64,000 nt of DNA from an uncultured Actinomycetes bacterium (GTDB lineage: Bacteria > Actinomycetota > Thermoleophilia > RBG-16-64-13), in contig CAWFCL010000004.1 of NCBI GenBank assembly GCA_963814365.1, forward strand, positions 1,311,432 to 1,375,431. Direction: 5' to 3'. Numbering within the stretch: the stretch's first letter is position 1; each line of letters opens with the position of its first letter. Positions 12,340 to 63,210 of this stretch are shown here, one piece after another. The notes under the pieces are model-generated. The model worked only from the letters and a program-made list of their open reading frames with translations. It did not search any database and was not told the DNA's origin. Position numbers and translations under genes: made by a program.

Positions 12340-12354
12340 GGGCGTCGACCTCGC

Positions 12355-48814: not shown

Positions 48815-49423
48815 TTGGATACACCATTTTCAATTGACTCCTGCTATGGTCTGCGCTCCGAAGAGCGAAAGGAGTCTCCGATCCCGGTCACGGCCTTTGT
48901 CTGTGTAAACTGTGCGCGTCCTGGCCAGAAGCCTGATTCCGGCGGACGGCCTCGGCCATTGCTGCCTCGATTCTCGTGGCCCTTTCCAGTGCGTGAGGTA
49001 CTCGTGCCCTGCACCGGCCGTATCCAGCCAGAGCACCTCCTCAAGGCCTTCGAATCGGGCTCGGACCTGGTCTGCGCCATCGCCTGCGCCGAAGACAACT
49101 GCCACTACGTAGAGGGCAGCAAGCGCTGCGCCCGGCGCATCGACCATCTGCGCGGCATCCTGGACGAAGTCGGCCTGGGCCGAGAGCGTCTCCTGTTGTT
49201 CAACCTCCCCGGCACCGCGGCCCAGGACACGGCGCTGGGCGCCGACGATGACAAAGGCTGCACCGTGGGGCCCCCGGATGAGCAGATCGAGGCTATCCGC
49301 GACCAGGTGTCACGAGTACTGGAAGGACTGTCCCCCAACCCCCTGCAAACCGGGCCCGAGGTCGAACTGGCCGAAGACCCTTATCTACAAGCGGAAATGG
49401 ATGATGACGACTTCCCAGAGTAA
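48815..49423 (+). CDS. mvhD: MvhD/FlpD-like hydrogenase iron-sulfur subunit (copy 1)
   Basis: AFVCVNCAR ... VPCTGRIQPEHLLKAFESGSDLVCAIACAEDNCHY ... GLGRERLLLF. Confidence 0.7.
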   Translation: MDTPFSIDSCYGLRSEERKESPIPVTAFVCVNCARPGQKPDSGGRPRPLLPRFSWPFPVREVLVPCTGRIQPEHLLKAFESGSDLVCAIACAEDNCHYVEGSKRCARRIDHLRGILDEVGLGRERLLLFNLPGTAAQDTALGADDDKGCTVGPPDEQIEAIRDQVSRVLEGLSPNPLQTGPEVELAEDPYLQAEMDDDDFPE

Positions 49424-50270
49424 GTTCGCCCAGGCACTGGAATCCGACCGCCTCGTGCTAACGGCCGACTGCTACGCACCGCACAGCGGCGACGCGGGCG
49501 ACGTCAAGGCGCTCGCTGCAGCGCTGCCCTCCGAGTCTGGACGCGGTGGTGGTGGCCGAGAATCCCGACGGCATCTACGGCTCGGCTTTGGCTTGTGCCG
49601 CTCTGCTGGTTGGTGAAGGCCGCCAGGCGGTGGTCACCATGTCCACCCGCGACCGCAACCGCATCGCGTTGGAGAGCGACGCCTTGGGCGCCTCGGCCCT
49701 GGGTGTGGGCGCTGTGCTCTGCCTCAGTGGCAACCATCAGTCTCTGGGCGCCTGCCCGCAGGCGGGGTCGGCCTATGACATCGACTCTACTCAGCTCCTG
49801 CGCATCGTCAGCAGACTGGAGCTCCCCAGCATGCTTCTGGGAGCCATAGCGCACCCCCACCAGACCCCGGTGGAGCTCAACCTCATCAAGCTCAAGAAGA
49901 AGATCTCGGCCGGCGCCGGATTCGTACTCACACAGCCGGTGTTCGACCTCGACGTGTTCGAGGGTTGGATGAAGGCCGTGCGGGCGCTCAAGCTGCAGCA
50001 GCAGGCTCCCATCATCGCGAGCGTCCTACCCATCGCCACCGTCGAGCAGGCCGAGACCCTGCAAGGACAACAACACTACGGTCCGCTGGGCGACACCGTG
50101 GTGGCCCGCATCTCGGGCGCGTCGGATGTCGCCGCCAGGAGGGTGTGGCCCTGGCGGCCGAGATGGCCTCCAAGCTCAAGACTATTGAGGGTGTACGTGG
50201 CGTCAACATCCTGTGCGGGGGCGATGCGACGCTGGCCGGCGAGGTGATCAAGGCAGCAGGCCTGGCTTAG
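49401..50270 (+). pseudogene. metF: Methylenetetrahydrofolate reductase MetF (Hdr-associated type) with +1 then -1 frameshifts
   Basis: N-terminal segment in frame 0 (MMTTSQSKFAQALESDRLVLTADCYAPHSGD..AALPS). Middle segment in frame 1 (LDAVVVAENPDGIYGSALACAALLVGEGRQAVVTMSTRDRNRIALESDALGASALGVGAVLCLSGNHQ ...). C-terminal segment back in frame 0 (GVALAAEMASKLKTIEGVRGVNILCGGDATLAGEVIKAAGLA*). Confidence 0.65.
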
Positions 50271-50290
50271 GACGAGAGGACTAGAAGCGC

Positions 50291-51733
50291 ATGCCCGACC
50301 GCTACCATATCCACGCCGTGCCCCTGGCGCCGCACTTCCGCCGCGTCGGCAAGTTCGGCAACGTCGACTGGCGCGAAGACTGCTCGCGTTGCACCAACTG
50401 CGTCAAGTTGCGCTGCATCTACGACGTCTACAAGTACGAGGCCGACTACAACCGTGATCCCCAGACCGCGCTCGAGACGCACGACCAGTGCAAAGCTTGT
50501 CTCTCCTGCGTGATGGGCTGCACCAAGGGTCTCCTAAACATAGCGGTCAACCCTGAGTATCTGGCTATGGGCGATGAGTACTGGAAGCCCGACATCATCG
50601 CGACGACCTGGAACCAGGCGGACACCGGCAAAGTGCCGGTCTCGGGCGCCGGATACCGGGGTCGCTTCTACGGACCCGGCTTCGATTCCATCTGGACCGA
50701 CATGTCCGAGATCGTGCGCCCCACTCGCGACGGCATCCACGGGCGCGAGTTCATCAGCACCTCGGTGGACATCGGCGTCAAACCCATGCGCCTGCGCTTC
50801 GCGGCGGACGGCAACATGATCGACGAACCCAGTCGTTTGGTCGAACTGCAGATCCCGGCCATATTGGACGGACCTTCCTGGCCGGTACTCAGCCCCAATC
50901 TGACCCAGGCCAGGGTCCAAGCCGCCAAGGCATTGGCGTCGCTCGCTGTGGTGCCGGTGGCCGAGGCGGCAGAGCTGCCTGCCGAACTCCTGCCCTGGGT
51001 CGTCCCGCTGCTGGGCCAAGACGCCGGGGTAGGCGGCGAGGTAGACAAGTATCGCGACCTACTGAGCGCGGTGCGCATGGTACAGACGACCGACGGGCTG
51101 AAAGTGAACGAACTGGCCCAGGCGTTACAGGCTGCTCACCCACGACTGGTGATCTGCGTCCGTATGGACCTGGCGCCTACTGCCGCCGACCGCGTCGTCG
51201 AGCTCAGTCTCACTGCCGGACTCAAAGTGTTCCAGCTCTGCGCCGACCATCACGGACGCGAACGCCGGGCAGACGGCGGGCCGGGTAGGCACATCAAAGA
51301 CACCATGCGCGAATTGCACGGGCGCCTGGTCACCGCCGGCGTGCGCGACGAGATCACCCTGATAGTATCCGGCGGTATCGCGCTGGCAGAGCACATGGCC
51401 AAGACCATCATCTGCGGAGCCGATCTGGTGGCTGTGGGGACCCCGCTCCTGGTGTCCCTGGGTTGCCGCCTCTGCGACGACAGAGAACGCTGCGTGACCG
51501 AGGGCCGTTGCCCCGCCCGCTTGGACGATGCGCAACTCGACTACGCTACTCAGCGCCTGGTAAACATGTTCGGATCATGGCACAGCCAACTACTGGAGTT
51601 GTTGGGAGCCATGGGCATCCGCGAAGTCCGCCGTCTGCGCGGAGAAGTCGGACGGGCGATGTTCCTAGAAGATATCGAGGCCGACGCCTTTGGCGACCTG
51701 GACCACATCGCGCCGACCGAGGTGTGCTCATGA
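50291..51733 (+). CDS. Glutamate synthase-related protein, divergent GltB FMN/Fe-S-domain-like, with N-terminal ferredoxin-like Cys motifs
   Basis: CxxCxxC(x)nC at the N-terminus. C-terminal IVSGGIALAEHMAKTIICGADLVAVGT..LGCRLC....C.. pattern of the GltB FMN barrel. No canonical YGGGMSFGS block. Confidence 0.5.
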   Translation: MPDRYHIHAVPLAPHFRRVGKFGNVDWREDCSRCTNCVKLRCIYDVYKYEADYNRDPQTALETHDQCKACLSCVMGCTKGLLNIAVNPEYLAMGDEYWKPDIIATTWNQADTGKVPVSGAGYRGRFYGPGFDSIWTDMSEIVRPTRDGIHGREFISTSVDIGVKPMRLRFAADGNMIDEPSRLVELQIPAILDGPSWPVLSPNLTQARVQAAKALASLAVVPVAEAAELPAELLPWVVPLLGQDAGVGGEVDKYRDLLSAVRMVQTTDGLKVNELAQALQAAHPRLVICVRMDLAPTAADRVVELSLTAGLKVFQLCADHHGRERRADGGPGRHIKDTMRELHGRLVTAGVRDEITLIVSGGIALAEHMAKTIICGADLVAVGTPLLVSLGCRLCDDRERCVTEGRCPARLDDAQLDYATQRLVNMFGSWHSQLLELLGAMGIREVRRLRGEVGRAMFLEDIEADAFGDLDHIAPTEVCS

Positions 51734-53346
51734 CCACCGACTGGCCCCAGGGACACATCGACCGCGAAGTTCGGCCTGCCCCCGAACGGTACCGGAACGT
51801 CCTTGGCAAGTACAAGGTCAACCGTTCGGCCGATTGCATAGCCTGCGGCAGGTGCGCCCAGGTGTGCGAGCACGGCGTTCATGTGAGACCCGAGGGCTAC
51901 ACCTTCATGCTCCGGCCACAGGACTTCCGCTGCGTCGGCCCTGAGTGCTCCGAATGCGACACCTCCTGCGTAGCCCAATGTCCGCAGAAGGCACTGACCG
52001 TGACGCGCAACTCCTCCGCAGACGCCCTGGGCGATCCGCGCTGGTCCAGCGACCTGATCCTTTCTACCTGGCACCAGGCAGCTACGGGCCATGCAGCCCC
52101 CAAGCACCTGGAGCAGCGCACCGGCGCCTCGGGTGGCGGCTTCGATCGGTTGCGCTTCAAGTTCGAGGTGCCCGACAAGTTCACTCCTCAGCAAAGCGGC
52201 ACGGCTGCGGGCGCGGGCACCGCTGCGGACCCGTCCGGCGAGTCCGCCGTCAGACCCGAGGACGTCGATGTGAGTCTTGACCTCAACCAACGAGGCGACA
52301 ATCGCCCGCAAGTGCACATCGATATACCTGTGTACGGCGGAGGCATGAGCTTTGGCTCGGTGAGCATCCACACCATACTGGGCAAAGCGCGCGCCGCCAC
52401 AGCGTGGAACACCTTCAGTTGCACCGGAGAGGGTGGCTATCACGACCGACTGCGCCCCTACGACGACCACATGATCACCCAGGTGGCCACGGGACTGTTC
52501 GGCGTGCGCGACGAGACCATCCAGCGCGTGCGCATAGTGGAGTTCAAGTACGCCCAGGGGGCCAAGCCCGGTCTGGGAGGTCACCTACTCGGCGACAAGA
52601 ACACACCGCCTGTGGCGCGCATGCGCGAGGCGGTGGCCGGAAACGCTCTGTTCTCGCCGTTCCCCTTCCACAGCGTCTACTCGGTCGAAGACCACAAGAA
52701 GCATCTGGACTGGATCAAAGAGGTCAACTCCGACGCGCTGGTCAGCGTCAAGGTATCCACCCCCACCGACGTGGACATGGTGGCGGTAGGTAGCTACTAC
52801 GCAGGTGCGCACATCGTGCACCTGGACGGCAGCTACGGTGGTACCGGCGCCGCTCCCGACATCGCCAAGAAGAACATCGCCATGCCTATCGAGTACGCCA
52901 TCCCCAAGGTACACAAGTTCCTGGTGGCTGAGGGGATTCGCGATGAGATCACCCTGATCGCTTCAGGCGGCATCCGCACCGCCTTCGACGCCCTGAAAGC
53001 CATTGCTCTCGGTGCCGACGGTGTGGTGGTCGGTACGGTGGAGATGGTGGCCCTGGGCTGCGTACGCTGCGCCTGCTGCGAGAGCGGGCGGGGCTGTCCG
53101 CGCGGCATCGCGACCACCGACCCCGAGCTCATGCAGCAGATGACCCTGGAGTGGTCTACGCAGAGGATCATCAACCTCTACAACGCCTGGCAGGAGCAGA
53201 TGGTCGAGACGCTCGCCGGCCTGGGCATGAGGTCCATCCGCGAGCTGCGCGGCCGCAGCGACCTGCTCTGCTACGTCACCGACGAGAGCGTAAGCGGCGC
53301 GGGCACCGAGACGCGTGAGCCGGAGATGGCGGAGGTGGCCGAATGA
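51730..53346 (+). CDS. Glutamate synthase large-subunit FMN-binding domain protein (GltB central domain) with N-terminal ferredoxin
   Basis: IPVYGGGMSFGSVS ... KYAQGAKPGLGGHLLG ... HSVYSVEDHKKHLDWIKE ... LIASGGIRTAFDALKAIALGADGVVVGT ... GCVRCACCESGRGCPRGIAT. The start overlaps the upstream stop (ATGA). Confidence 0.75.
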   Translation: MTTDWPQGHIDREVRPAPERYRNVLGKYKVNRSADCIACGRCAQVCEHGVHVRPEGYTFMLRPQDFRCVGPECSECDTSCVAQCPQKALTVTRNSSADALGDPRWSSDLILSTWHQAATGHAAPKHLEQRTGASGGGFDRLRFKFEVPDKFTPQQSGTAAGAGTAADPSGESAVRPEDVDVSLDLNQRGDNRPQVHIDIPVYGGGMSFGSVSIHTILGKARAATAWNTFSCTGEGGYHDRLRPYDDHMITQVATGLFGVRDETIQRVRIVEFKYAQGAKPGLGGHLLGDKNTPPVARMREAVAGNALFSPFPFHSVYSVEDHKKHLDWIKEVNSDALVSVKVSTPTDVDMVAVGSYYAGAHIVHLDGSYGGTGAAPDIAKKNIAMPIEYAIPKVHKFLVAEGIRDEITLIASGGIRTAFDALKAIALGADGVVVGTVEMVALGCVRCACCESGRGCPRGIATTDPELMQQMTLEWSTQRIINLYNAWQEQMVETLAGLGMRSIRELRGRSDLLCYVTDESVSGAGTETREPEMAEVAE

Positions 53347-55985
53347 CCGACTTCGCCGAACGCCTGCTGCGCAGCCGCTCCCAGGTCTACACCGGACCAG
53401 ACATGCCTGCCGCCGACCCAGTCGAAGAGGGCGGCTGCGGCGTCACCGGGTTCACCTGCACCGTCCCCGTCAAGGGCCGGTTCATCTACGAGCCCAGCAA
53501 GCAGATGCAGAACCGCGGCAACGGCAAGGGCGGCGGCATCGCCTGCGCCGGGCTGGTGCCCGAGCAGTTGGGCATCTCCGGGAGGCGCTCGAGAGCCACT
53601 ACCTGCTGCAGATCGCCCTACTGGATCCGGAGTGCCACGCGGAGCTGGAGAAGGAGTTCGTCGCTCCCCCACTTCGACATCGCCCACTCCGAGCGTCAAG
53701 ACCATGTCGACGACCACACCGCTGTCGGCTTGGAGGTGCGCCCCCCGGATGTGCACCGCTACGTAGTGCGGGTCAAGCCCGACGTCCTTGAGGCTTTCGC
53801 AACAGAGGCGGGCTTGCAGGGCTTGTCTCCGCGCGAGCTCGAAGACGAGTTCGTCTGGCGTAACAGCTACAAGCTCAACGACACTTACTATGCCTCGCTG
53901 GGCGAGAAGCGCGCCTTCGTGCTCAGCCACGCCCGCAACCTGCTGATCTTCAAGTGCGTGGGCTACGCCGAGCAGAACGTGGAGTACTACAAGCTGCACG
54001 ACTTCCAGGCACATACCTGGATCGCCCACCAGCGCTATCCGACCAAAGGCCGAGTATGGCACCCAGGCGGCGCCCATCCGTTCATCGGCATGAACGAGGC
54101 CCTGGTACACAACGGCGACTTCGCCAACTACCACTCGGTCAGCGAGTATCTGCGGCAGCGCAACATTCGCCAGCAGTTCCTCACCGACACCGAGGTGGCG
54201 GCGCAGTTGTTCGACCTGTGGGACCGCGTGTACAAGTACCCGCTGGAGTACATCATCGAGGCGTTCGCTCCCACCACCGAGCTGGACTTCGACCAGTTGC
54301 CGCCCGAGAAGCAGACCATTTACAGGCAGATCCAGGCGACGCACGTACACGCGTCGCCCGACGGTCCCTGGTTCTTCATCATCGCCCGCAGCCAGGGAGA
54401 CAGGTTCCAACTCATGGGCATCACCGACACGGCCATGCTCAGGCCGCAGGTGTTCGCGCTCAGTGACAGTGGCGACGTGCAGATAGGCCTTATCTGCAGT
54501 GAGAAGCAGGCCATCGACGCCACGCTGCGCAGCCTGGCCGAGGAAGACCCGCGCTTCTGCCCCGTGGCCGACAAGTACTGGAACGCGCGCGGTGGCTCGT
54601 CCACCGACGGCGGTGCCTTCATCTTCAGCGTCGCGCCCGACGACACCGGCCGCATGCGCCTGACCTGTACCGACAAGTTCGGTCGCGAGGTCAAGAACGC
54701 CTGCGGAGCGGTGCGCTGCGACCTGCCGGTCGAAGAGCTGACCGACGGTGTGCAGGCCACCTGCACGCCCGAGCCGGTCAGTGCCGAAGAGGTGCAAGAG
54801 GAGCTACGCAGGGGCAACACCGACGCCCTGTTCCAGAAGGCCACTGATCCCGCTGCCGGCCTGGGCTCTTGGCCGGCGGACCACCTCCGTCGCTTCTGTG
54901 GCTACTTGCTGGCGGTAGCGGGCGACCCGGCCGCCGCTCCGAGAGTCCGCGCCGCCGGAGTTGAACTACTCACCAAGTTGCACGACCGGCACTACGCCAC
55001 GCACGACAAGCGTCGGGCCACCATCATCCGCGTACTCGAGGACGAGTTGGACCGTCTCTTCGACACCGCCCCGCTGTTCGGCGAGACCGCCAACCGTGGC
55101 TGGCGTCGCGTCACCTGGACGACGCGCGACCGCGTCGCCGCCCCACAGTCGGGTGAAGACACCTTGGTCATCGATGCCGATGGCTTCCCCCCCGAGGGCG
55201 ACGACTGTGACGCAGTGCTCCTGCGCGCGGCCTACCGCAAGGGCTGGAAGAAGTTCATCGTCTACCGTCTGCGTGGCCAACGCTTCCACGGCGCCGGACT
55301 GGGCGCAGCCACTGATGGCGTGCGCATCGACCTCTACGGCTCCAATGGTGACTACGCGGCCAGCGGCATGGACGGGCTGGAGATGCACATCCACGGCAAT
55401 GCTCAGGACCAGGTGGCGCAGATAGCCAAGCGCGGCAAACTGGTCATCTACGGGGATGTCGGGCAGACCTTCATGTACGGCGCCAAGGGCGGCGAGGTGT
55501 TCGTCCTGGGCAACGGCGCCGGGCGCCCACTCATCAACGCCGTGGGCCGGCCCCGCGTGGTCATCAACGGCACCTGCTTGGACTTCCTGGCCGAATCCTT
55601 CATGGCCGGCAACCCGCTCAACGGCGGCGGTTTCGTGATCCTGAACGGCATCGAGTTCGACGAGAACGGACGAATGGTGCCACAGGCCAGCCCCTACCCT
55701 GGCAGCAACCTGTTCTCGCTGGCCAGTGGAGGCGCTATCTACATACGCGACCCCGAGCGCAAGGTGGTCGATGGCCAGCTAAACGGCGGTGTGCTCTCTC
55801 CGCTCGACGATAAGTCTTGGCGACTGGTCCGCAGCTACCTGGACGAGAACGAGCGCTTGTTCGGCATCAAGGTGCAAGACCTGCTCACCGTCGATGGTGT
55901 GGTCCGCTCCCCCCAAGACGTGTACCGCAAAGTCACCGCCGTCTCGCTGGCAGTCTTGGCCGCCGGCGCCAAGGAGAAGAAGTGA
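53343..55985 (+). CDS. Glutamate synthase large-subunit-like: class-II amidotransferase domain plus C-terminal GXGXG domain
   Basis: GGCGVTGF ... NRGNGKGGGIA ... IAHQRYPTKG Ntn-amidotransferase pattern. C-terminal YGSNGDYAASGMDGLEMHIHGNAQDQVAQIAKRGKLVIYGDVGQTFMYGAKGGEVFVLGNGAGRPLINAVGRP (GXGXG). A roughly 30-aa extension precedes the nucleophile Cys. Confidence 0.75.
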   Translation: MTDFAERLLRSRSQVYTGPDMPAADPVEEGGCGVTGFTCTVPVKGRFIYEPSKQMQNRGNGKGGGIACAGLVPEQLGISGRRSRATTCCRSPYWIRSATRSWRRSSSLPHFDIAHSERQDHVDDHTAVGLEVRPPDVHRYVVRVKPDVLEAFATEAGLQGLSPRELEDEFVWRNSYKLNDTYYASLGEKRAFVLSHARNLLIFKCVGYAEQNVEYYKLHDFQAHTWIAHQRYPTKGRVWHPGGAHPFIGMNEALVHNGDFANYHSVSEYLRQRNIRQQFLTDTEVAAQLFDLWDRVYKYPLEYIIEAFAPTTELDFDQLPPEKQTIYRQIQATHVHASPDGPWFFIIARSQGDRFQLMGITDTAMLRPQVFALSDSGDVQIGLICSEKQAIDATLRSLAEEDPRFCPVADKYWNARGGSSTDGGAFIFSVAPDDTGRMRLTCTDKFGREVKNACGAVRCDLPVEELTDGVQATCTPEPVSAEEVQEELRRGNTDALFQKATDPAAGLGSWPADHLRRFCGYLLAVAGDPAAAPRVRAAGVELLTKLHDRHYATHDKRRATIIRVLEDELDRLFDTAPLFGETANRGWRRVTWTTRDRVAAPQSGEDTLVIDADGFPPEGDDCDAVLLRAAYRKGWKKFIVYRLRGQRFHGAGLGAATDGVRIDLYGSNGDYAASGMDGLEMHIHGNAQDQVAQIAKRGKLVIYGDVGQTFMYGAKGGEVFVLGNGAGRPLINAVGRPRVVINGTCLDFLAESFMAGNPLNGGGFVILNGIEFDENGRMVPQASPYPGSNLFSLASGGAIYIRDPERKVVDGQLNGGVLSPLDDKSWRLVRSYLDENERLFGIKVQDLLTVDGVVRSPQDVYRKVTAVSLAVLAAGAKEKK

Positions 55986-56569
55986 CAGCGCAATCCACCA
56001 TAGAACTCATCGAGGTGCAAGAGATAGGGTCAACACTGGCCCGCGAAATCGAGCAGCTCTGCGGCTCTTCGCCCCTGGCCTGTCTGCAGTGCGCCAAGTG
56101 CTCCAACGGCTGCCCGGTAGCCGCCCGGACGGGACTCACTCCGCACCAGTTGGTCCGACTACTGCAGACCGGTCAGCGCAAAGCGGCACTCAGCAGCCGC
56201 TTCATCTGGGAGTGTACCTCCTGCCACACCTGCATCACCCGCTGCCCGCAGCAGGTGGACATCTGTGCCATGAACGACGCCTTGCGCGCCCTTAGTCTCC
56301 GCGAAGGGTCAGCGACCGGCAAGTCAGCCGTGCCCACCTTCAACAAGGCCTTCTTGGACTCGGTACGCAAGCGCGGCCGCGTGCATGAGCTGGGTCTGAT
56401 GGCCGTGTTCAAGCTGCGTACCGGACGCTTGCTCGAAGACATGGGCAAAGCCCCCATGATGCTGACCAAAGGCAAGCTGCCGTTGTTCGGGCACCGCATG
56501 AGCGGCCGCCCCGAACGCGAGGGACTGTTCTCCCGTGCGGCCCGTGGACGTCGGGGGACCCGCTCATGA
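55982..56569 (+). CDS. hdrC: Heterodisulfide reductase subunit C-like (HdrC)
   Basis: Two CxxCxxCxxxCP motifs (CLQCAKCSNGCP, CTSCHTCITRCP). GTG start overlaps the upstream stop. Confidence 0.75.
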   Translation: MTAQSTIELIEVQEIGSTLAREIEQLCGSSPLACLQCAKCSNGCPVAARTGLTPHQLVRLLQTGQRKAALSSRFIWECTSCHTCITRCPQQVDICAMNDALRALSLREGSATGKSAVPTFNKAFLDSVRKRGRVHELGLMAVFKLRTGRLLEDMGKAPMMLTKGKLPLFGHRMSGRPEREGLFSRAARGRRGTRS

Positions 56570-57448: not shown

Positions 57449-59412
57449 GCGACAACGGCAAGAACATGAGCGACACCGCACGGGTCGACCAGGCCGCCGC
57501 GGCGGCCGCCCAGCCGGGCGCGACCCCCGCCGGCGCGGCCAAAGAGCCCGTGGGCGCCGTCATGGTGTGCGGTGCCGGCATCACCGGCATCCAGGCCTCT
57601 CTGGATCTGGCCGAGAGCGGGTTCAAGGTCTACTTGGTCGATTCTTCGCCGGCCATAGGTGGCCGCATGGCCCAGCTCGACAAGACCTTCCCCACCGGCG
57701 ACTGCGCCATGTGCATCCTGTCGCCCAAGCTGGTGGAGTGCGCACGCAACAAGAACATCGAGATCATCACCATGGCCGATGTCGAGGGCATCTCGGGTGA
57801 GCCGGGCGAGTTCAAGGTCAAAGTCCGACAGAACCCGCGCTTCGTCGACCTGATCAAGTGCAATGCCTGCGGCGACTGCGTCGAGGCCTGTCCCGTCGAC
57901 CTGCCCAATGAGTTCGACCGCAGGCTCGGCACCCGTAAGGCCATCTACCGGGCTTATCCGCAGGCTATCCCCAATGTATTCGCCATCTCCAAGGCCCCGG
58001 GTCGCGCGCCATGCCGCACCGCCTGCCCGGCAGGCATCAACGTGCAGGGCTACGTCGCCCTCATCAGTGCGGGCAAGTTCAAAGAAGCGCACGACCTCAT
58101 CCTGCAGGAGTGCCCGCTGCCGGCAACCTGCGGCCGGGTCTGCCCCGCCCCGTGCGAGACCGCTTGCACCCGGGCACAAGTGGATGAGCCTATCGCCATC
58201 GCCGGCCTCAAATGGTTCGCGTACGAGAAGGGCCGGCCCACCGAACTGCCCGAGAAGCTGCCCGTCCAACACAACGAGAAGGTGGCTATCGTGGGCGGCG
58301 GTCCCGCGGGTCTGAGTTGCGCCCGCGACCTGGCCCAGTACGGCTACGCCACCACCGTCTTTGAGGCTCTGCCCGTGGCGGGCGGCATGCTGCGTGTGGG
58401 CATCCCTGACTATCGCATGCCTCCTGAGGTGCTGCAGCAAGAGATCGACAACATCTGCGCGCTGGGCGTGGACCTGCGCGTGAACCAGCGTTGTGGCACC
58501 GACTTCACTGTCGACGGCCTTCTGGACGACGGGTACAAGGTCGTGTTCCTAGCTCCCGGTCTGCATGCCAGCCTACCGGCTCCCGCCAAGGGCGACGACC
58601 TCGACGGCTGCCTGAAGGCGATCGAGTTCCTGCGTGCCGCCAACCTGGGTGATCCGCTGCCGGTCGGCGACCGAGTCGTGGTCATCGGCGGTGGCGACGT
58701 GGCTTTCGACGCCGCCCGTACGGCCGCACGCCTTACTTCGGGCAGCGGCAAAGCCCCCTCGGTCACCGTGGCCTACCGCCGAACTCGTGGCGAGATGCCT
58801 GCCACCACCGACGAGATCGAAGAAGGTCTCGCCGAAGGCCTCACTATCGAGTACCTGGCCTCTCCCGTGGAGGTGCTGGGCGATGGAGGCAAGGTGCGCG
58901 CCATGAAGTTCCAGCGCTGCCAGCTTGGCGCGCCGGACGAAGGTGGCCGCTGCAAAGCCGAGCCTATCGAGGGCGACTTCTTCGAGATCCCCTGCGACAA
59001 CGTCATCTTTGCCATCGGTCAGGCCATGGTGGACGACTTCATCGCCACCGCCGACGGCGCCACCGTCGACGGTGTGGCTGTCGAGCGCAACGCCATCAAG
59101 GTGGACGCCGGCACCATGATAACCGGCCGACCCGGCGTCTTTGCGGGCGGTGACGCCGCCCCTCAAGGCCCCCTGACCGCCATCCAAGCCATCGCGGCCG
59201 GGCGCAAGGCCGCCGCGAGCATCCACAACTACCTGCGCGGCAAGCAGATCGTCCCGCTGGAACAGGATCGCTGCCCGACGCCGCCCGGCCGACTCCGACC
59301 TGGCCAAGGTCGACTAAAGAGCCCCGCGAGCACCTGTCGGAGCAGCCGGGCGACGAACGCCGGCGCAACTGGGACGAGGTCCGCACCGTGTTCACCGAGG
59401 AGCAGGCCGTAG
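57445..59412 (+). CDS. hdrA: HdrA-like N-terminal FAD/ferredoxin module fused to a GltD/NfnB-like NAD(P)H-FAD oxidoreductase domain (HdrL-like); 3' end out of frame
   Basis: VMVCGAGITGIQASLDLAESGF ... DCAMCILSPKL ... CNACGDCVEACP (HdrA). Then PLPATCGRVCPAPCETAC ... VAIVGGGPAGLSCARDL ... VVIGGGDVAFDAA ... VFAGGDAAPQGPLTAIQAIAAGRKAA (GltD-like). The last ~45 codons are low-complexity. Confidence 0.7.
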   Translation: MSDNGKNMSDTARVDQAAAAAAQPGATPAGAAKEPVGAVMVCGAGITGIQASLDLAESGFKVYLVDSSPAIGGRMAQLDKTFPTGDCAMCILSPKLVECARNKNIEIITMADVEGISGEPGEFKVKVRQNPRFVDLIKCNACGDCVEACPVDLPNEFDRRLGTRKAIYRAYPQAIPNVFAISKAPGRAPCRTACPAGINVQGYVALISAGKFKEAHDLILQECPLPATCGRVCPAPCETACTRAQVDEPIAIAGLKWFAYEKGRPTELPEKLPVQHNEKVAIVGGGPAGLSCARDLAQYGYATTVFEALPVAGGMLRVGIPDYRMPPEVLQQEIDNICALGVDLRVNQRCGTDFTVDGLLDDGYKVVFLAPGLHASLPAPAKGDDLDGCLKAIEFLRAANLGDPLPVGDRVVVIGGGDVAFDAARTAARLTSGSGKAPSVTVAYRRTRGEMPATTDEIEEGLAEGLTIEYLASPVEVLGDGGKVRAMKFQRCQLGAPDEGGRCKAEPIEGDFFEIPCDNVIFAIGQAMVDDFIATADGATVDGVAVERNAIKVDAGTMITGRPGVFAGGDAAPQGPLTAIQAIAAGRKAAASIHNYLRGKQIVPLEQDRCPTPPGRLRPGQGRLKSPASTCRSSRATNAGATGTRSAPCSPRSRP

Positions 59413-62018
59413 CCGAAGCCACACGTTGTCTGGACTGCGGCCTCTGCAGCGAGTGCATGCAGTGCGTCCAGGCCTGCTCGGCCGGAGCTATCTTGCACGA
59501 GCAACAGGCGGAGATACTGGAGATTGAAGCGGGCAGCGTGATCCTTACGCCCGGCTTCGAGGAGTTCCAGGCCACCCGTAGAGGTGAGTTCGGTCTTGGT
59601 CGCTACGCCAACGTCCTCTCGAGCGTACAATTCGAACGCATGCTCTCCGCCGCCGGCCCCACCGCTGGCGAGGTGATGCGCCCCTCTGACGGCGGCGAAG
59701 TCAAGCGCATCGCTTTCGTGCAGTGCGTGGGCAGCCGCGACTCGGCCAAGGGCAATGGCTACTGCTCGTCCATCTGCTGCATGAGTGCCACCAAGGAAGC
59801 TATGGTGGCCTTGGAACACGCTCACGGACACGACTTAGACGTCTCCATCTTCTGTATGGACGTGCGCGCTTTTGGCAAGGAGTTCGACAACTACGTCGAC
59901 AGAGCCCGTGACGAACACGGGGTCAAGTACATCCGGGCCATCCCTTCGCGCCTGGTCGAGGTACCGGGCAGCAAAGACCTGCGCATCCGCTACTTCGCAG
60001 ACGACGGAGCGCAGACCGAGGCCGACTTCGACTTGGTGATCCTGAGTGTGGGCATGCAGGTGCCCGATAGTGTCCGCAAGACCGCGGCGAATCTGGGTAT
60101 GGACTTGAACGAGTTCGGCTTCGCTCAGACCGACCGCTTGACCCCCATGGCCACCTCCAAGCCGGGTCTGTATGTGGCCGGTGCCTTCCAGGAGCCCAAA
60201 GATATCCCCGAGTCGGTGGCTCAGGCTTCCGCGGCGGCCGGCTGCGTCATGGACCAGTTGGCTCCGGCGCGCGGCAATCTCATCAAACAACACGAGTACC
60301 CGTGGGAGCGCGACACCACAGACGAAGAGCCGCGTGTAGGCGTCTTCGTGTGTCACTGCGGCCACAACATCGCTTCGGTCATAGATGTGGAGCACGTCGC
60401 CGAAGAAGCGGCCACTATGTCCAACGTGTGCCACGCCGAGACCAGCATCTACACCTGCTCGGACACGAATCAGCAACACATCCTAGATATGATCAAGGAG
60501 CACCGCCTCAATCGCTTGGTGGTCGCCAGTTGCTCGCCGCGCACACACGAGGCTCTCTTCCAAGAGACCCTGCGCGAGAGCGGCCTGAACCAGTACCTGT
60601 TCGCGATGGCCAACATCCGCGACCAGGGCTCCTGGGTGCACAAGGACGACCCACAGAAGGCGACCGAGAAGGCTGTGGACCTCATGTCCATGGCGGTCGC
60701 CCGCGCGCGGCACCTTAAGGCCCTGCAGACCGGACGTCTGCCGGTGGTCTCGTCAGCCCTGATACTTGGCGGTGGCTTGGCCGGCATGACCGCCGCGCTG
60801 GGCCTGGCCGAGCAGGGCTTCCAGGTCCACTTGGTCGAGAAAAGCGCTGAGCTCGGCGGCCTGCTCCGCAGTGTGCGCACCACTCTAGAAGGCGCCGATG
60901 TGCAGGCATATCTGCGCGATCTGGTGGCCAAAGTGAAGGCCCAGCCCGCCATCAAGGTCTACCTCAACACCACCGCCAAGACCCTTGAAGGTCACGTGGG
61001 CGACTTCCACAGCGTCCTAGGCGTGGCCGGCGAAGAAGTACCGGTAAGACACGGCGTGATCATCCTTGCGACCGGTGGCCAGGAGCGCTCCACCGAACTC
61101 TACTTGCACGGTCGGAATCCGCACGTCATCACTCAGAGCAAGCTCGAAGCGGCGCTGGCCGGCGACAACCTGCCCGAGGAGCTGCGGGGCAAAGAGAGCC
61201 CGACCGTGGTCATGATCCAGTGCGTCGAGAGCCGCAACGCCGAGCACGGTTACTGCAGCCGCGTGTGTTGCTCCGAGGCCATCAAGAACGCTCTGGAGAT
61301 CAAGCGCCGGCTGCCTGATGCCAATGTAGCCATCCTGGGCCGGGATATCCGCACCTACGGATTCCGTGAGCTCGCCTACCGACAGGCCCGCGAGAAAGGC
61401 GTCATGTTCGTCCGCCACGGCGACGGCGCTGAGCCCACCGTCACCGACCAGAACGGCGCACTGCGCGTGCAGGTGCACGACACCACCGGCGGCCAAGACC
61501 TGCTACTGAGTCCGGACCTGTTGGTGCTCAGCGCCGGCATCGCGCCCGCCGAGACCAACCCGGTACTCTCCGGGCAGTTGCGCAGCGCCCTCACCGCCGA
61601 TGGATTCTTCTTAGAGGCACATCCCAAGCTCCGCCCAGTCGACTTAGCCAATGAGGGCGAGTTCGTCATCGGACTCTCTCACTCGCCGCGGTTCATGGAC
61701 GAGACCATCGCCCATGCAATGGCCGCCGTAGGCCGGGCCGCCACCATCCTCTCCAAGCAGTATCTGGAGATTCCCGGTCAGGTCTCGGTGGTCGACCCCA
61801 CCCACTGCGTAGCCTGTGCCACCTGTGTGAAGGTCTGCCCCTACGGCGCACCGCACATCAACGAGGTGGGTAAGGCCCAGATCGAAGGTGCCATGTGCAT
61901 GGGTTGCGGTAGCTGTGTGGCCTCGTGTCCGGCGCGAGCCATCACCCTGCGCAACCAAGAAGACCAGGCGCTCGTCGCCATGCTGGATGAACTCCTAGTG
62001 GAAGGGGTGTCACTGTGA
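59388..62018 (+). CDS. hdrA: HdrA (remainder of the first unit plus a second complete HdrA unit)
   Basis: RCLDCGLC ... CVGSRD ... YCSSICC ... GVFAAGAFQEPKDI (end of unit 1). Then FVCHCGHNI ... CSPRTHE ... ANIRDQGSWVH (HdrA N-domain), ALILGGGLAGMTAALGLAE (FAD), YCSRVCC, CVACATCVKVCP ... CMGCGSCVASCP. Confidence 0.8.
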   Translation: MFTEEQAVAEATRCLDCGLCSECMQCVQACSAGAILHEQQAEILEIEAGSVILTPGFEEFQATRRGEFGLGRYANVLSSVQFERMLSAAGPTAGEVMRPSDGGEVKRIAFVQCVGSRDSAKGNGYCSSICCMSATKEAMVALEHAHGHDLDVSIFCMDVRAFGKEFDNYVDRARDEHGVKYIRAIPSRLVEVPGSKDLRIRYFADDGAQTEADFDLVILSVGMQVPDSVRKTAANLGMDLNEFGFAQTDRLTPMATSKPGLYVAGAFQEPKDIPESVAQASAAAGCVMDQLAPARGNLIKQHEYPWERDTTDEEPRVGVFVCHCGHNIASVIDVEHVAEEAATMSNVCHAETSIYTCSDTNQQHILDMIKEHRLNRLVVASCSPRTHEALFQETLRESGLNQYLFAMANIRDQGSWVHKDDPQKATEKAVDLMSMAVARARHLKALQTGRLPVVSSALILGGGLAGMTAALGLAEQGFQVHLVEKSAELGGLLRSVRTTLEGADVQAYLRDLVAKVKAQPAIKVYLNTTAKTLEGHVGDFHSVLGVAGEEVPVRHGVIILATGGQERSTELYLHGRNPHVITQSKLEAALAGDNLPEELRGKESPTVVMIQCVESRNAEHGYCSRVCCSEAIKNALEIKRRLPDANVAILGRDIRTYGFRELAYRQAREKGVMFVRHGDGAEPTVTDQNGALRVQVHDTTGGQDLLLSPDLLVLSAGIAPAETNPVLSGQLRSALTADGFFLEAHPKLRPVDLANEGEFVIGLSHSPRFMDETIAHAMAAVGRAATILSKQYLEIPGQVSVVDPTHCVACATCVKVCPYGAPHINEVGKAQIEGAMCMGCGSCVASCPARAITLRNQEDQALVAMLDELLVEGVSL

Positions 62019-62545
62019 CGTCGCAGCCGACCCCAGCCCAGGCCGACGCGCCCACCAACGTGCCGCCCTCCGTGGCGCCCGATTGGGAGCCGGAGATGAT
62101 TGCCTTCGCCTGCAACTACTGCGCTTACGCCGCCGCCGACTTGGCCGGTTCCCGTCGCATGCAGTACCCGACCAACGTGCGCATCATCCACGTGCCCTGC
62201 ACCGGCAAGATAGAGATGGAGCACATCCTGGACGCCTTCCTCAAGGGCATAGACGGCATCCTGGTGGCCGGCTGCTTGGAAGGAGGCTGCCACTTCTTGG
62301 AGGGCAATCTACGGGCCCGCAAGCGCACCGACCATATCCGCGAGATGTTGGGCGAGATAGGCGTGGGTCAGGATCGCCTAAGGATGGTCAACCTATCCGC
62401 GGCGGAGGCTCCCACCTTTGTCAGGAGCGTGAAAGAGATGGTCGATACAGTCAAAGCTCTGGGCCCCAGCCCGCTGAAGGGCAGTGCATCGCCGACGGAG
62501 CGCAGTCTGCAGCCCCAGCCATCGGAAAGTGAAGGACAGCAATGA
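62015..62545 (+). CDS. mvhD: MvhD/FlpD-like subunit (copy 2)
   Basis: IAFACNYCAYAAAD ... IIHVPCTGKIEMEHILDAFLKGIDGILVAGCLEGGCHFLEGN. Confidence 0.7.
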   Translation: MTSQPTPAQADAPTNVPPSVAPDWEPEMIAFACNYCAYAAADLAGSRRMQYPTNVRIIHVPCTGKIEMEHILDAFLKGIDGILVAGCLEGGCHFLEGNLRARKRTDHIREMLGEIGVGQDRLRMVNLSAAEAPTFVRSVKEMVDTVKALGPSPLKGSASPTERSLQPQPSESEGQQ

Positions 62546-63210
62546 TAGTCGCCTCCCCCAAGACCGTCACCGAACTCAAGGACCTCATCACGAGCCACAA
62601 GAAAGTCCTCTTCGTGGGCTGCGGCACGTGCGTCACTGTGTGTCTGGCCGGTGGCGAGCGCGAGGTGGGTCTGGCCGGCTATGCCGTCCGCATGGCGCGC
62701 AAGCTGGCGAACCAGCCCGTCGAGATATCCCAGATCACCATAGAGCGCCAATGCGAGAACGAGTTCATCCAAGACTTGGCGGAACCCGCTGTGGAGGTCG
62801 AGGCTATCCTCTCCTTTGGATGTGGAGTGGGTGTGCAGGCCATCGCCGAGAGATTCCCTAACAAGCCGGTCTACGCCGCCCTCAACACTCAGTTTATGGG
62901 TACTCTGGAGGAGCAGGCCGTCTGGACCGAGAAGTGCATGGGCTGTGGCGACTGTGTGCTCGCTGACTTCGGCGGCATCTGCCCGGTCACCCGTTGCGCC
63001 AAGCGCTTGTTGAACGGCCCTTGCGGCGGTTCCACCGAAGACCACTGCGAAGTAGACCCCGACAGGCCCTGCGCGTGGCAACTAATCTATAAGAGGCTCC
63101 GGGGCATAGGTCAGCTAGCCCGCCTTGAAGAAGAGGTGCCACCCAAGGACTGGAGCCCTTCGTGGCACTCCGGAGCCCGCAAGATCGTGCGCAAGGAGCA
63201 CAGGGTCTAG
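62542..63210 (+). CDS. metV: MetV-like Fe-S/zinc-ribbon protein (MTHFR_C family)
   Basis: FVGCGTCVTVC ... CMGCGDCVLADFGGICPVTRCAKRLLNGPCGGS. Confidence 0.6.
   Translation: MIVASPKTVTELKDLITSHKKVLFVGCGTCVTVCLAGGEREVGLAGYAVRMARKLANQPVEISQITIERQCENEFIQDLAEPAVEVEAILSFGCGVGVQAIAERFPNKPVYAALNTQFMGTLEEQAVWTEKCMGCGDCVLADFGGICPVTRCAKRLLNGPCGGSTEDHCEVDPDRPCAWQLIYKRLRGIGQLARLEEEVPPKDWSPSWHSGARKIVRKEHRV

What the first reader, a model, noticed from the sequence alone, without database searches (positions are those of the whole stretch)
48815..63210. Hdr/Mvh/MetFV flavin-based electron-bifurcation cluster with an embedded split glutamate-synthase-like module
Eleven co-directional, tightly overlapping genes: mvhD - metF - GltB-FMN-like x2 - GltB amidotransferase+GXGXG - hdrC - hdrB - hdrA(GltD fusion) - hdrA - mvhD - metV. 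HdrABC-MvhD-MetFV alone is the acetogen-type methylene-THF reductase complex. Here metF and metV are split to opposite ends, and three GltB-domain genes sit between them. The amidotransferase, FMN barrel and GXGXG domains lie on separate polypeptides. One HdrA also carries a GltD-like NAD(P)H domain. Translational coupling (ATGA/GTGA overlaps) implies one complex. This suggests an undescribed Hdr-coupled, possibly electron-bifurcating, glutamate-synthase-like or reductive amination/reduction system.
Basis: partly seen in the sequence, partly recalled or inferred. Interest (0 to 1): 0.85.

Follow-up and report, generated by a model that had tools for sequence, protein, structure and literature searches.

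The report
Glutamate synthase wired to Hdr/MetFV module
A ten-gene operon joins a split, archaeal-type glutamate synthase to the heterodisulfide-reductase/MvhD/MetV electron-transfer machinery known from acetogen methylene-tetrahydrofolate reductase. The same combination recurs in hundreds of uncultured anaerobes from at least six phyla, and I found no description of it.

Summary
The genes are real and the domain calls are right, but the inventory needs correcting. There are ten genes, not eleven. The two "hdrA" ORFs are one roughly 1,520-aa HdrA of the Moorella thermoacetica type, with a GltD/NfnB-like NAD(P)H domain inserted. It is split by a frameshift. metF (two frameshifts) and hdrB (one) are also broken, most likely by long-read indel errors.

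The same order recurs in 38 of 51 related loci with full flanks, from Actinomycetota, Acidobacteriota, Myxococcota, Planctomycetota and others. Shorter forms lack Hdr, and a few lack MetFV as well. The invariant core is the GltB-like trio.

The trio's catalytic motifs are invariant across 68-81 loci. In contrast, the MetF catalytic Asp120 position is variable in Hdr-containing forms (Asn here). The recurrent neighbours are amt, glnK (PII), glnA, glnE and a conventional split GOGAT. They are not Wood-Ljungdahl genes.

Best reading: a glutamate synthase whose electrons come through an Hdr/MvhD/MetV(F) iron-sulfur flavoprotein module, possibly by electron bifurcation. Ten literature searches found no description. 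The mechanism is inferred, not shown.

The parts
48815..49423 (+). mvhD1: MvhD/FlpD-type [2Fe-2S] electron-transfer protein. The true start codon is uncertain.
   Evidence: Pfam FlpD 2.2e-22. The CxxC...PCTG...C...CH Cys pattern is read from the translation. It sits at the head of the cluster in long-form relatives.
49398..50270 (+). metF-like MTHFR-family flavoprotein. It is interrupted by two frameshifts (about 49529 and about 50134). The catalytic Asp120 equivalent is Asn and the Glu28 equivalent is Asp.
   Evidence: Pfam MTHFR 3e-15. Three-frame translation. tblastn of intact orthologs places the junctions. Motif table.
50291..51733 (+). Subunit A: paralog of the GltB FMN subunit. It has N-terminal Cys-rich ferredoxin-like motifs and a C-terminal Cys cluster but lacks the AQGAKPG motif. 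It is probably a non-catalytic Fe-S/scaffold subunit.
   Evidence: Pfam Glu_synthase 8e-13 over the last ~100 aa. BLASTP to subunit B: 25% identity, 6e-33.
51730..53346 (+). Subunit B: archaeal-type GltB core, a 2x[4Fe-4S] ferredoxin domain plus the FMN/Fe-S glutamate-synthase barrel.
   Evidence: Pfam Glu_synthase 5e-91 plus Fer4. 4e-55 to A. brasilense GltB residues 857-1172. YAQGAKPGLGGHLLGDK and C-x2-C-x2-C-x6-C-P are invariant in 68 sequences.
53343..55985 (+). Subunit C: class-II (Ntn) glutamine amidotransferase domain, an unassigned ~340-aa middle region, and a GXGXG beta-helix domain.
   Evidence: Pfam GATase_6 1.4e-7 and GXGXG 1e-11. GlmS-like alignment. CGV, HQRYPT, VHNGDFAN and TDTEV motifs are conserved in 80-81 sequences. 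GXGXG matches FwdC and Fd-GltS about equally.
55982..56569 (+). hdrC: 2x[4Fe-4S] subunit.
   Evidence: Pfam Fer4_8/Fer4_17. NCBIfam CoB-CoM heterodisulfide reductase C 3e-17, below the curated cutoff.
56566..57448 (+). hdrB: two CCG domains, with one frameshift at about 56950-56964.
   Evidence: Two Pfam CCG hits on the two ORF halves. Intact 290-296-aa orthologs. Junction located.
57445..62018 (+). hdrA, Moorella/'HdrL' type, about 1,520 aa. It contains TrxR module 1 interrupted by an NfnB/GltD-like NAD(P)H-FAD-2x[4Fe-4S] domain, then a complete second HdrA (MvhD-like N-domain, TrxR module 2, C-terminal ferredoxin domain). One frameshift lies at about 59255-59280.
   Evidence: Pfam and NCBIfam hits. 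Single ORF in relatives. PDB hits to HdrA 5odc and to NfnB/StnC/GltD. E/K residues kept in both modules. GGGDVA NADPH-type motif.
62015..62545 (+). mvhD2: MvhD/FlpD [2Fe-2S] protein.
   Evidence: Pfam FlpD 4.3e-48.
62542..63210 (+). metV: Fe-S subunit of MetFV-type methylene-THF reductases.
   Evidence: Pfam DUF5981 (MTHFR C-terminal) 2.6e-37.

Best explanation
The cluster encodes one multi-subunit iron-sulfur flavoprotein complex whose conserved catalytic activity is glutamate synthesis (glutamine + 2-oxoglutarate + 2 e- -> 2 glutamate).

Catalytic part (domains and motifs shown; the reaction steps are inferred by analogy with characterised glutamate synthase): subunit C hydrolyses glutamine at its N-terminal-nucleophile Cys. 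Ammonia passes to the FMN barrel of subunit B, where 2-iminoglutarate is reduced. Subunit A is a degenerate paralog of B that keeps Fe-S motifs and probably acts as scaffold and wire.

Electron supply (inferred): instead of a free GltD subunit or ferredoxin alone, electrons arrive through a Moorella-type HdrCBA-MvhD-MetV(F) module. NAD(P)H (GGGDVA motif, NADPH-type) is oxidised at the NfnB/GltD-like domain inserted in HdrA. The electrons pass the HdrA flavins and reach subunit B through the MvhD, MetV and A/B ferredoxin-like clusters.

Possible bifurcation (inferred): both HdrA flavin sites keep the Glu/Lys pair associated with bifurcating HdrA. The GOGAT couple lies about 200-270 mV above NAD(P)H by my estimate from textbook potentials. 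The complex may therefore bifurcate, with one electron going downhill to GOGAT and one uphill to ferredoxin.

MetF: in this organism the MetF-like subunit has lost the canonical catalytic Asp. It probably serves as a flavin relay or structural subunit rather than as an efficient methylene-THF reductase.
For: 1. Domain identities.
2. GATase and FMN-domain catalytic or cofactor motifs are invariant in 68-81 orthologs from at least six phyla. The MetF Asp120 position is D/N/Y/A/L/M/H/S/R/T in Hdr-containing forms.
3. Seven 4-bp overlaps. The Glt genes are interleaved between metF and metV. The order is conserved in 38 of 51 full loci.
4. The system is modular: A-B-C alone (L074); MvhD-A-B-C next to glnA-amt-glnK (L073); plus MetVF (8 loci); plus HdrA; plus HdrCB.
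5. Of 60 loci with more than 3 kb upstream, 15 carry Amt, PII and/or a GlnA-type gene co-directionally upstream of the cluster, directly adjacent in most. These come from Actinomycetota, Acidobacteriota and Desulfobacterota-like lineages. GlnE is nearby in L081/L082. In Desulfobacula toluolica a conventional split GOGAT with GltD and a GAF-ANTAR regulator lie immediately upstream.
6. The HdrA architecture equals that described for M. thermoacetica (PMC9430772), and the E/K residues are retained.
Against: - No biochemical data exist, and complex formation is inferred from gene arrangement only.
- The window itself has no amt/glnK/glnA within 64 kb.
- The role of HdrBC (both CCG motifs intact) is unexplained.
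- Short-form MetF proteins keep all canonical catalytic residues, so methyl-/methylene-THF may be a true substrate in at least some forms.
- The amidotransferase domain resembles GlmS/PurF more than GltB at sequence level.
- The AF2 model of subunit C was poor and gave no significant fold match.
- Four frameshifts leave open that this particular copy is decaying.
Confidence: 0.55

Rival explanations
1. A coupled MTHFR-GOGAT oxidoreductase. MetF is a real catalytic site, and methyl-THF oxidation (E0' about -200 mV) donates electrons to glutamate synthesis. In the Hdr form, methyl-THF electrons would be bifurcated between NAD(P)+ and GOGAT. Alternatively, methylene-THF and 2-oxoglutarate/glutamine are two acceptors of one electron-input module.
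For: - 49 of 51 full loci keep MetF and MetV next to the trio.
- Short-form MetF proteins keep the Glu28, VTDNQ, Asp120 and Gln183 equivalents.
- The short form has no NAD(P)H-binding domain, so MetF's flavin is the only other substrate-type site.
- glnA lies directly upstream in several short-form loci.
- By my estimate the thermodynamics allow methyl-THF -> GOGAT (about +150 mV).
Against: - Catalytic residues of MetF are lost in several long-form lineages, including this window (N at Asp120; Myxococcota also lose Glu28; Planctomycetota have Y).
- A-B-C occurs without MetFV (L073, L074).
- Stoichiometric coupling of a catabolic C1 step to nitrogen assimilation is physiologically awkward.
- No Wood-Ljungdahl genes were found in the flanks examined.
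Confidence: 0.2
2. Two independent enzymes that are merely co-transcribed: an ordinary Moorella-type HdrCBA-MvhD-MetVF methylene-THF reductase and a separate ferredoxin-dependent split glutamate synthase.
For: - Both modules exist on their own elsewhere: the Moorella operon (PMC9430772) and A-B-C alone in L074.
- Operons can combine unrelated functions.
Against: - metF and metV lie at opposite ends with the Glt and Hdr genes between them.
- An extra mvhD accompanies metF.
- Seven translational overlaps.
- The association persists across at least six phyla despite rearrangements such as MvhD-MetV-MetF-A-B-C and MvhD-A-B-C-Hdr-MvhD-MetV-MetF.
- MetF catalytic residues decay while the gene is retained. 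This fits a structural role in a larger complex better than a free-standing enzyme.
Confidence: 0.12
3. The GltB-like trio is not a glutamate synthase. It would be an N-methylglutamate-synthase-like or other amine-transfer enzyme, linked through MetF to C1-folate metabolism.
For: - NMGS (MgsABC) is also built from separate GltB1, GltB3 and GltB2-type proteins and works with a GlnA-like GmaS (PMC6237917).
- Amt can carry methylammonium (my knowledge).
- A folate enzyme is present in the cluster.
Against: - B and A carry N-terminal ferredoxin domains and a conserved four-Cys cluster, which indicates net electron input.
- The neighbours are glnK, glnE, a high-scoring GlnA (both Pfam domains, 1e-129) and a GltD-type GOGAT, not mgdABCD.
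- GATase and GXGXG are fused in an 880-aa protein, unlike the 300-aa MgsA and 225-aa MgsB.
- The carriers are anaerobes.
Confidence: 0.05
4. This particular copy is a decaying pseudogene cluster, and the four frameshifts are real.
For: Four frameshifts in 14.4 kb, in metF (two), hdrB and hdrA.
Against: - Apart from the shifts, every piece stays 55-90% identical to intact orthologs over its whole length, with no in-frame stops.
- The junctions lie next to short C/G runs.
- The nearest relative, also a long-read MAG (L010), is broken at different positions.
- GH94 and ABC-F genes elsewhere in the window also look interrupted.
- The two metF shifts compensate each other.
Confidence: 0.06

Closest known systems
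HdrCBA-MvhD-MetVF methylene-tetrahydrofolate reductase of Moorella thermoacetica (Mock et al. 2014, as described in PMC9430772; also Sporomusa ovata)
   Same: - HdrC, HdrB with two CCG domains, MvhD and MetV are all present.
- HdrA is a ~1,500-aa protein with a TrxR module interrupted by a GltD-type NAD(P)H domain, followed by a second HdrA lacking the inserted ferredoxin domain.
- The E/K pair is kept in both flavin modules.
   Different: - metF is moved to the far end, behind a second mvhD.
- Three GltB-domain genes are inserted between metF and hdrC.
- MetF lacks the canonical Asp (Asn) here.
- The context in relatives is nitrogen assimilation, not the Wood-Ljungdahl pathway.
Archaeal-type split glutamate synthase (separate GltB domain 1, 2 and 3 proteins; domain 2 with an N-terminal ferredoxin domain) and bacterial NADPH-GOGAT GltBD
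   Same: - A class-II amidotransferase, a Fer4 + Glu_synthase FMN barrel and a GXGXG domain are all present.
- The FMN barrel is 4e-55 to A. brasilense GltB.
- A GltD-type domain is also encoded in the cluster.
   Different: - GATase and GXGXG are fused with a ~340-aa unassigned linker.
- There is an extra degenerate FMN-barrel paralog (A).
- The cluster motif has four Cys (C-x2-C-x2-C-x6-C) rather than the three of the [3Fe-4S] site.
- The GltD-type domain is buried inside HdrA and is closer to NfnB/StnC (1e-76 to 1e-109) than to GltD (9e-50).
- The electron-input partners are MvhD/MetV/MetF/Hdr.
HdrL of Desulfobacterium autotrophicum (PMC2702500) and type III HdrA of archaea (PMC12054007)
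   Same: HdrA carries an inserted glutamate-synthase-small-subunit-like NAD(P)H domain and is followed by mvhD.
   Different: Those papers do not link HdrL or type III HdrA to GltB-domain genes or to MetFV. The protein here combines the GltD insertion with a second complete HdrA.
N-methylglutamate synthase MgsABC (PMC6237917)
   Same: It is built from GltB1-, GltB3- and GltB2-type modules on separate polypeptides and works downstream of a glutamine-synthetase-like enzyme.
   Different: - The MgsA, MgsB and MgsC best hits listed in the paper are about 300, 225 and 442 aa.
- Its genes sit with gmaS and mgdABCD.
- Here B and A carry ferredoxin-like domains, which as far as I know MgsC lacks, and there is an extensive redox partner set.
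- The neighbours here are amt/glnK/glnA/glnE.

Membership tests
Glutamate synthase (GOGAT, GltS) | Class-II (Ntn) glutamine amidotransferase domain with an N-terminal nucleophile Cys, an oxyanion Asn-Gly and substrate-binding Arg/Asp. | tested here: met
   GGCGVTGF (Cys32), IAHQRYPTKG, LVHNGDFAN and LTDTEV are present, and the core of each motif is conserved in 79-81 of 81 sequences. The alignment to GlmS shows the equivalent residues. The HMM match is to generic GATase_6/7, not GATase_2.
Glutamate synthase (GOGAT, GltS) | FMN-binding Glu_synthase barrel (PF01645) with the 2-oxoglutarate-binding Lys/Arg and the Fe-S cluster cysteines. | tested here: met
   PF01645 5e-91. 4e-55 to A. brasilense GltB 857-1172, with AQGAKPG Lys, the R-x-R Arg and three aligned Cys plus an extra one. 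The motifs are invariant in 68 sequences. The assignment of these residues to 2-OG binding rests on my recollection of the GltS structures.
Glutamate synthase (GOGAT, GltS) | C-terminal GXGXG beta-helix domain. | tested here: met
   PF01493 1e-11. The profile matches Fd-GltS residues 1293-1397 (0.0039) and FwdC (0.0028) about equally.
Glutamate synthase (GOGAT, GltS) | Central domain linking the amidotransferase and synthase sites (ammonia tunnel). | tested here: inconclusive
   Residues ~300-640 of subunit C have no sequence match in PDB. The AF2 model has pLDDT 60.8, and Foldseek gave only non-significant GltS hits (E 0.07-0.5).
Glutamate synthase (GOGAT, GltS) | Glutamine- and 2-oxoglutarate-dependent glutamate formation, and a role in nitrogen assimilation. 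| not testable with these tools
   Only context is available. Amt, PII, GlnA, GlnE, a sigma-54/GAF activator, GAF-ANTAR and a second GltD-type GOGAT lie next to orthologous clusters. None lies within this window.
Moorella-type HdrCBA-MvhD-MetVF methylene-THF reductase | HdrC (2x[4Fe-4S]), HdrB (two CCG motifs), MvhD and MetV are present. | tested here: met
   Pfam hits. Both CX31-39CCX32-36CXXC patterns are read in the HdrB halves.
Moorella-type HdrCBA-MvhD-MetVF methylene-THF reductase | Large HdrA with a GltD-interrupted TrxR module plus a second HdrA lacking the inserted ferredoxin domain, with Glu/Lys at both flavins. | tested here: met
   Searches give the domain order. PMC9430772 section 5 describes the Moorella protein. 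E83/K136 and E587/K633 of ORF 59388-62018 align to the HdrA E/K positions.
Moorella-type HdrCBA-MvhD-MetVF methylene-THF reductase | MetF with the canonical MTHFR catalytic residues (E. coli Glu28, Asp120, Gln183 equivalents). | tested here: not met
   The window has TADC (Glu->Asp) and CLSGNHQ (Asp->Asn); Gln is kept. The position is variable across long-form loci (31 D, 16 N, 10 Y, 5 A and others).
Moorella-type HdrCBA-MvhD-MetVF methylene-THF reductase | Contiguous hdrCBA-mvhD-metV-metF operon in a Wood-Ljungdahl organism or context. | tested here: not met
   metF is separated from metV by eight genes. No CODH/ACS, fhs or folD was seen in the window or in the flanks examined. Whole genomes could not be searched.
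N-methylglutamate synthase (MgsABC) | Three separate proteins of about 300, 225 and 442 aa (sizes of the best hits given in PMC6237917), in an operon with gmaS and next to mgdABCD. | tested here: not met
   Sizes and neighbours come from PMC6237917. The absence of ferredoxin domains in MgsC is my recollection, not stated in that paper. Here GATase and GXGXG are fused (880 aa), B and A have Fer4-type N-termini, and no sarcosine-oxidase-like mgd genes were seen in the flanks.

The most novel reading that the evidence does not exclude
This is a previously unrecognised class of flavin-based electron-bifurcating enzyme, a bifurcating glutamate synthase. It would use the strongly exergonic glutamine/2-oxoglutarate reduction as the high-potential branch to drive ferredoxin reduction from NAD(P)H. 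In the short form it would instead use methyl-THF as donor. It is widespread in anaerobic soil, peat and sediment bacteria. It would also point to what Moorella-type HdrCBA-MvhD-MetVF modules couple to.
Probability: 0.25. Interest if true: 0.9.

Novelty: new variant of a known kind. Interest (0 to 1): 0.72.

Why it matters
Glutamate synthase is the main entry point of nitrogen into biomass. Its known electron donors are NAD(P)H via GltD, ferredoxin, and putatively F420.

A version hard-wired to Hdr/MvhD/MetV machinery would be a new electron-input solution. If it bifurcates, energy-limited anaerobes could recover low-potential electrons from an otherwise wasteful anabolic step.

The subunit C family is large: more than 7,600 protein clusters at 90% identity and 263 species-level genomes. 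It is common in peat, fen and sediment MAGs of Acidobacteriota, Actinomycetota, Planctomycetota, Myxococcota and Desulfobacterota. Annotation pipelines currently label its parts 'glutamate synthase', 'heterodisulfide reductase' and 'methylenetetrahydrofolate reductase' separately. That can mislead metabolic reconstructions. For example, MetF, MetV or Hdr genes here could be scored as evidence for a Wood-Ljungdahl pathway.

The cluster also bears on the still unknown co-substrate of the Moorella-type MTHFR complex. It can be tested directly in cultured carriers such as Desulfobacula toluolica Tol2.

Tried and rejected
- AlphaFold2 of the 880-aa subunit C, with a 34-sequence alignment (all 72% identical or more), gave pLDDT 60.8. 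Foldseek against PDB found nothing significant. The identity of the middle domain therefore stays open.
- The look-up of encoding contigs on the window's own MetV and on P0001 returned no record, so the sequence beyond the window could not be read.
- I looked for Wood-Ljungdahl genes in the window and in the flanks of eight related loci and found none. The idea that this is simply the WL methylene-THF reductase of the organism was dropped as the primary reading.
- I considered selenocysteine read-through for the interrupted genes. It was rejected because the continuing reading frames differ.
- I considered an assembly chimera. It was rejected on synteny.
- One Pfam call failed because I gave coordinates that were not an ORF.
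- Ten full-text searches found no paper on this gene combination. Relevant subscription-journal literature (e.g. reviews of HdrA modules, the Desulfobacula toluolica proteome paper) could not be searched.
- NCBIfam gave no hit above any curated cutoff for any subunit.

Full report
**What is in the sequence**

Between 48815 and 63210 on the + strand lies an uninterrupted run of co-directional coding sequence in a 64% G+C window.

Pfam assigns the following:
- an MvhD/FlpD protein at 48815-49423
- an MTHFR-family protein
- a protein whose last ~100 residues match Glu_synthase (50291-51733)
- a ferredoxin-domain + Glu_synthase protein (5e-91; 51730-53346)
- an 880-aa protein with a class-II amidotransferase domain and a GXGXG domain (53343-55985)
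- an HdrC-type di-cluster protein
- two CCG domains (HdrB)
- HdrA-type and GltD-type domains
- a second MvhD (4e-48)
- MetV (DUF5981, 3e-37)

Seven gene junctions are 4-base start/stop overlaps, five ATGA and two GTGA.

**Corrections to the inventory**

Three-frame translation and tblastn with intact orthologs show four frameshifts:
- two in metF, at about 49529 and about 50134, which compensate each other
- one in hdrB, at about 56950-56964, beside a CCCC run

Relatives assembled from short reads have one MetF ORF of 297-321 aa, one HdrB of about 293 aa, and one HdrA of 1,491-1,612 aa. JGI gene calls on two further contigs give the same ten genes with 4-bp overlaps.

The closest relatives are long-read MAGs. 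The nearest one (L010) is broken at other positions. GH94 and ABC-F genes elsewhere in the window also look interrupted. I take the frameshifts to be indel errors, but this needs read-level confirmation.

The cluster therefore has ten genes. The amidotransferase and GXGXG domains share one polypeptide. The first 'GltB-FMN-like' protein (A) is a 25%-identical paralog of the second (B). A lacks the AQGAKPG motif but keeps Cys motifs.

**The Hdr part is a known type**

The reconstructed HdrA has four parts:
- a first thioredoxin-reductase-like module
- a Fer4_20/Pyr_redox_2 domain interrupting that module
- the rest of that module with a ferredoxin domain
- a complete second HdrA

The inserted domain matches NfnB and StnC-like chains (1e-76 to 1e-109) better than GltD (9e-50).

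This is the architecture that Kremp et al. describe for the 162.8-kDa HdrA of the M. thermoacetica HdrCBA-MvhD-MetVF complex (PMC9430772 section 5). It resembles HdrL of D. autotrophicum (PMC2702500) and archaeal type III HdrA (PMC12054007).

The Glu/Lys pair used in that literature to flag potentially bifurcating flavins is kept in both modules. The nucleotide motif is GGGDVA, the GXGXXA form that PMC12054007 contrasts with its NAD-type GXGXXG and that I read as NADPH-type. The GltD-carrying HdrA is therefore not a new feature of this cluster.

**The combination is conserved and modular**

A scan of one genome per species found 263 relatives of the 880-aa protein, and 80 loci were fetched. 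Mapping all window proteins onto them and classifying the 51 loci with full flanks gave:
- 38 with the full order mvhD-metF-A-B-C-hdrC-hdrB-hdrA-mvhD-metV (Actinomycetota, Bryobacteraceae and other Acidobacteriota, Myxococcota, Sedimentisphaerales and other Planctomycetota, FCPU426)
- 3 with hdrA but no hdrCB
- 8 with only mvhD, metV and metF plus A-B-C (Desulfobacterales, Dehalococcoidia, Syntrophorhabdales and some Acidobacteriota)
- 2 without MetFV

A and B accompany C in 67 of 68 loci with enough upstream sequence. In L074 the trio stands alone among menaquinone-biosynthesis genes. In L073 it follows glnA-amt-glnK-mvhD. Other orders occur, such as mvhD-A-B-C-hdrCBA-mvhD-metV-metF in L072 and L077.

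The invariant unit is the trio. MvhD/MetVF, HdrA and HdrCB look like successive add-on modules. The protein family exceeds 7,600 clusters at 90% identity, and sources name it only 'glutamate synthase (domain-containing protein 1/3)' or 'GXGXG domain-containing protein'.

**Which active sites are under constraint**

In subunit C, the Ntn nucleophile motif GGCGV(T/V/I)GF is kept in 79 of 81 sequences, the exceptions being one garbled and one gapped sequence. VHNGDFAN is kept in all 81. The cores of HQR(Y/F)PT and TDTEV are kept in nearly all.

In subunit B, YAQGAKPGLGGHLLG(D/E)K is kept in all 68 sequences. The C-x2-C-x2-C-x6-C spacing recurs in all the commonest variants, and the Arg of the M-R pair in the commonest ones. 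B aligns to A. brasilense GltB 857-1172 at 4e-55. The aligned positions include the Lys and Arg that I recall as 2-oxoglutarate ligands and the three [3Fe-4S] cysteines.

MetF behaves differently. Short-form loci keep the canonical motifs (TAECGPP, VNVTDNQ, SGD, TQ). In Hdr-containing loci the Asp120-equivalent is variable:
- D in Bryobacteraceae
- N in Actinomycetota, including this window
- Y in Planctomycetota
- A, L or M in Myxococcota, which mostly also replace Glu28

The window additionally has Glu->Asp. Retention of the gene alongside decay of catalytic residues suggests a structural or electron-relay role in the long form.

**Genomic context points to nitrogen assimilation**

Clustering all flanking ORFs and annotating the recurrent families showed that 15 of 60 loci with more than 3 kb upstream carry Amt, PII and/or a GlnA-type gene co-directionally upstream of the cluster, directly adjacent in most. 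They fall in three unrelated lineages. One of the 15, L018, has only a distant (35%) GlnA-like gene upstream, and its Amt hit lies far downstream on the opposite strand.

Other recurrent contexts:
- Seven loci, Acidobacteriota and Sedimentisphaerales, have a sigma-54/GAF activator.
- Bryobacteraceae have a divergent LysR regulator.
- L081 and L082 have glnE nearby.
- In the cultured Desulfobacula toluolica Tol2, the short form is preceded by a conventional split GOGAT (Fer4-Glu_synthase plus a GXGXG-GltD fusion) and a GAF-ANTAR regulator.

No Wood-Ljungdahl genes were seen in any flank examined. The window itself has none of these nitrogen genes. Its neighbours are a DAPG-hydrolase-like gene upstream and an acyltransferase downstream.

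**Interpretation**

Shown:
- domain identities
- conservation patterns
- synteny
- gene context

Inferred:
- The products form one complex.
- The complex makes glutamate from glutamine and 2-oxoglutarate.
- Electrons enter from NAD(P)H through the HdrA insert and travel by Fe-S clusters of HdrA, MvhD, MetV and A/B to the FMN of B.

The GOGAT couple is roughly 200-270 mV more positive than NAD(P)H. This is my estimate from the glutamate dehydrogenase equilibrium plus amide hydrolysis. That gap is comparable to the acceptors used by known bifurcating enzymes, so bifurcation to ferredoxin is thermodynamically plausible. It is untested.

Several points remain open:
- the role of HdrBC
- whether methyl-/methylene-THF is a substrate, which is likely in short forms and doubtful here
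- the identity of the ~340-aa middle region of C; AF2 and Foldseek were uninformative

**Rivals**

I weighed four alternatives:
- a truly coupled MTHFR-GOGAT oxidoreductase with methyl-THF as donor
- two independent enzymes in one operon
- an N-methylglutamate-synthase-like enzyme; that known split trio is built from separate GltB1, GltB3 and GltB2-type proteins and sits with gmaS/mgd genes (PMC6237917)
- a decaying pseudogene cluster

**Novelty and verdict**

All parts belong to known families, and the Hdr-MvhD-MetV module is of the Moorella type. The new element is their conserved fusion into one operon with a split glutamate synthase, in a nitrogen-assimilation context, across many phyla.

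Ten full-text searches found no description, but subscription literature was not searchable. I rate it a new variant of a known kind and of high interest. It defines a testable candidate for a new electron-input, possibly bifurcating, form of a central enzyme. It also warns against reading these MetF, MetV and Hdr genes as Wood-Ljungdahl markers.

Noticed in passing
window 18334-27108 (+): Several consecutive + strand ORFs (18334-20298, 21934-23898, 25810-27108 and others) carry pieces of one very large GH94-type glycosyl hydrolase/phosphorylase: Glycoamylase, the GH94 supersandwich, and a GH94 catalytic domain that starts at profile position 156. The gene appears broken by frameshifts, consistent with indel errors across the window.
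   Followed up: partly
window 31511-33118 (+): This ABC-F type ATPase ORF lacks most of its first ABC domain. Only the tail of that domain matches at residues 14-71. This suggests another frameshift or a mis-set start upstream.
   Followed up: no
window 5715-14051: A lower-G+C stretch (0.55-0.59 versus about 0.64) lies just after dnaE. It holds an HNH endonuclease (8132-9085, -), a C-5 cytosine DNA methylase (10403-11665, -), a DUF3800 protein (13269-14051, +) and two large ORFs with no Pfam hit (5715-8189, 9106-9891). It looks like a restriction-modification or defence island, possibly horizontally acquired.
   Followed up: no
L083 (Desulfobacula toluolica Tol2, FO203503.1 3782665-3805265), 1-4261: Immediately upstream of the short-form cluster lie a second split glutamate synthase (a 544-aa Fer4 + Glu_synthase protein and a 776-aa GXGXG-GltD fusion) and a GAF-ANTAR regulator. 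Two GOGAT-like systems with different electron-input modules therefore sit side by side in a cultured organism.
   Followed up: partly
L074 (Ca. Desulfofervidaceae MAG) 3390-14685: Here the A-B-C trio occurs without MvhD, MetFV or Hdr. It is embedded among UbiD/UbiX/UbiA-type and other menaquinone-related genes.
   Followed up: partly
L054, L065, L070, L080 (about 3960-4940); also L053, L077 downstream: In L054, L065, L070 and L080 a ~230-280-aa class-I glutamine amidotransferase (PF00117) sits between glnA and mvhD in short-form clusters. In L053 and L077 a copy lies downstream of the cluster. Its role is unknown.
   Followed up: no
window 36531-37937 (-) and 47948-48757 (+): A B12-binding radical SAM enzyme lies at 36531-37937. 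A DAPG-hydrolase (PhlG)-like protein lies directly upstream of the cluster. No link to the cluster was seen in relatives.
   Followed up: no
L012, L014, L017, L022, L023, L025, L026, L045 (Bryobacteraceae), about 100-170 bp upstream of mvhD1: A divergently transcribed LysR-family regulator is conserved directly upstream of the long-form cluster in Bryobacteraceae. In Actinomycetota and Desulfobacterota-like lineages the same position holds amt/glnK.
   Followed up: partly
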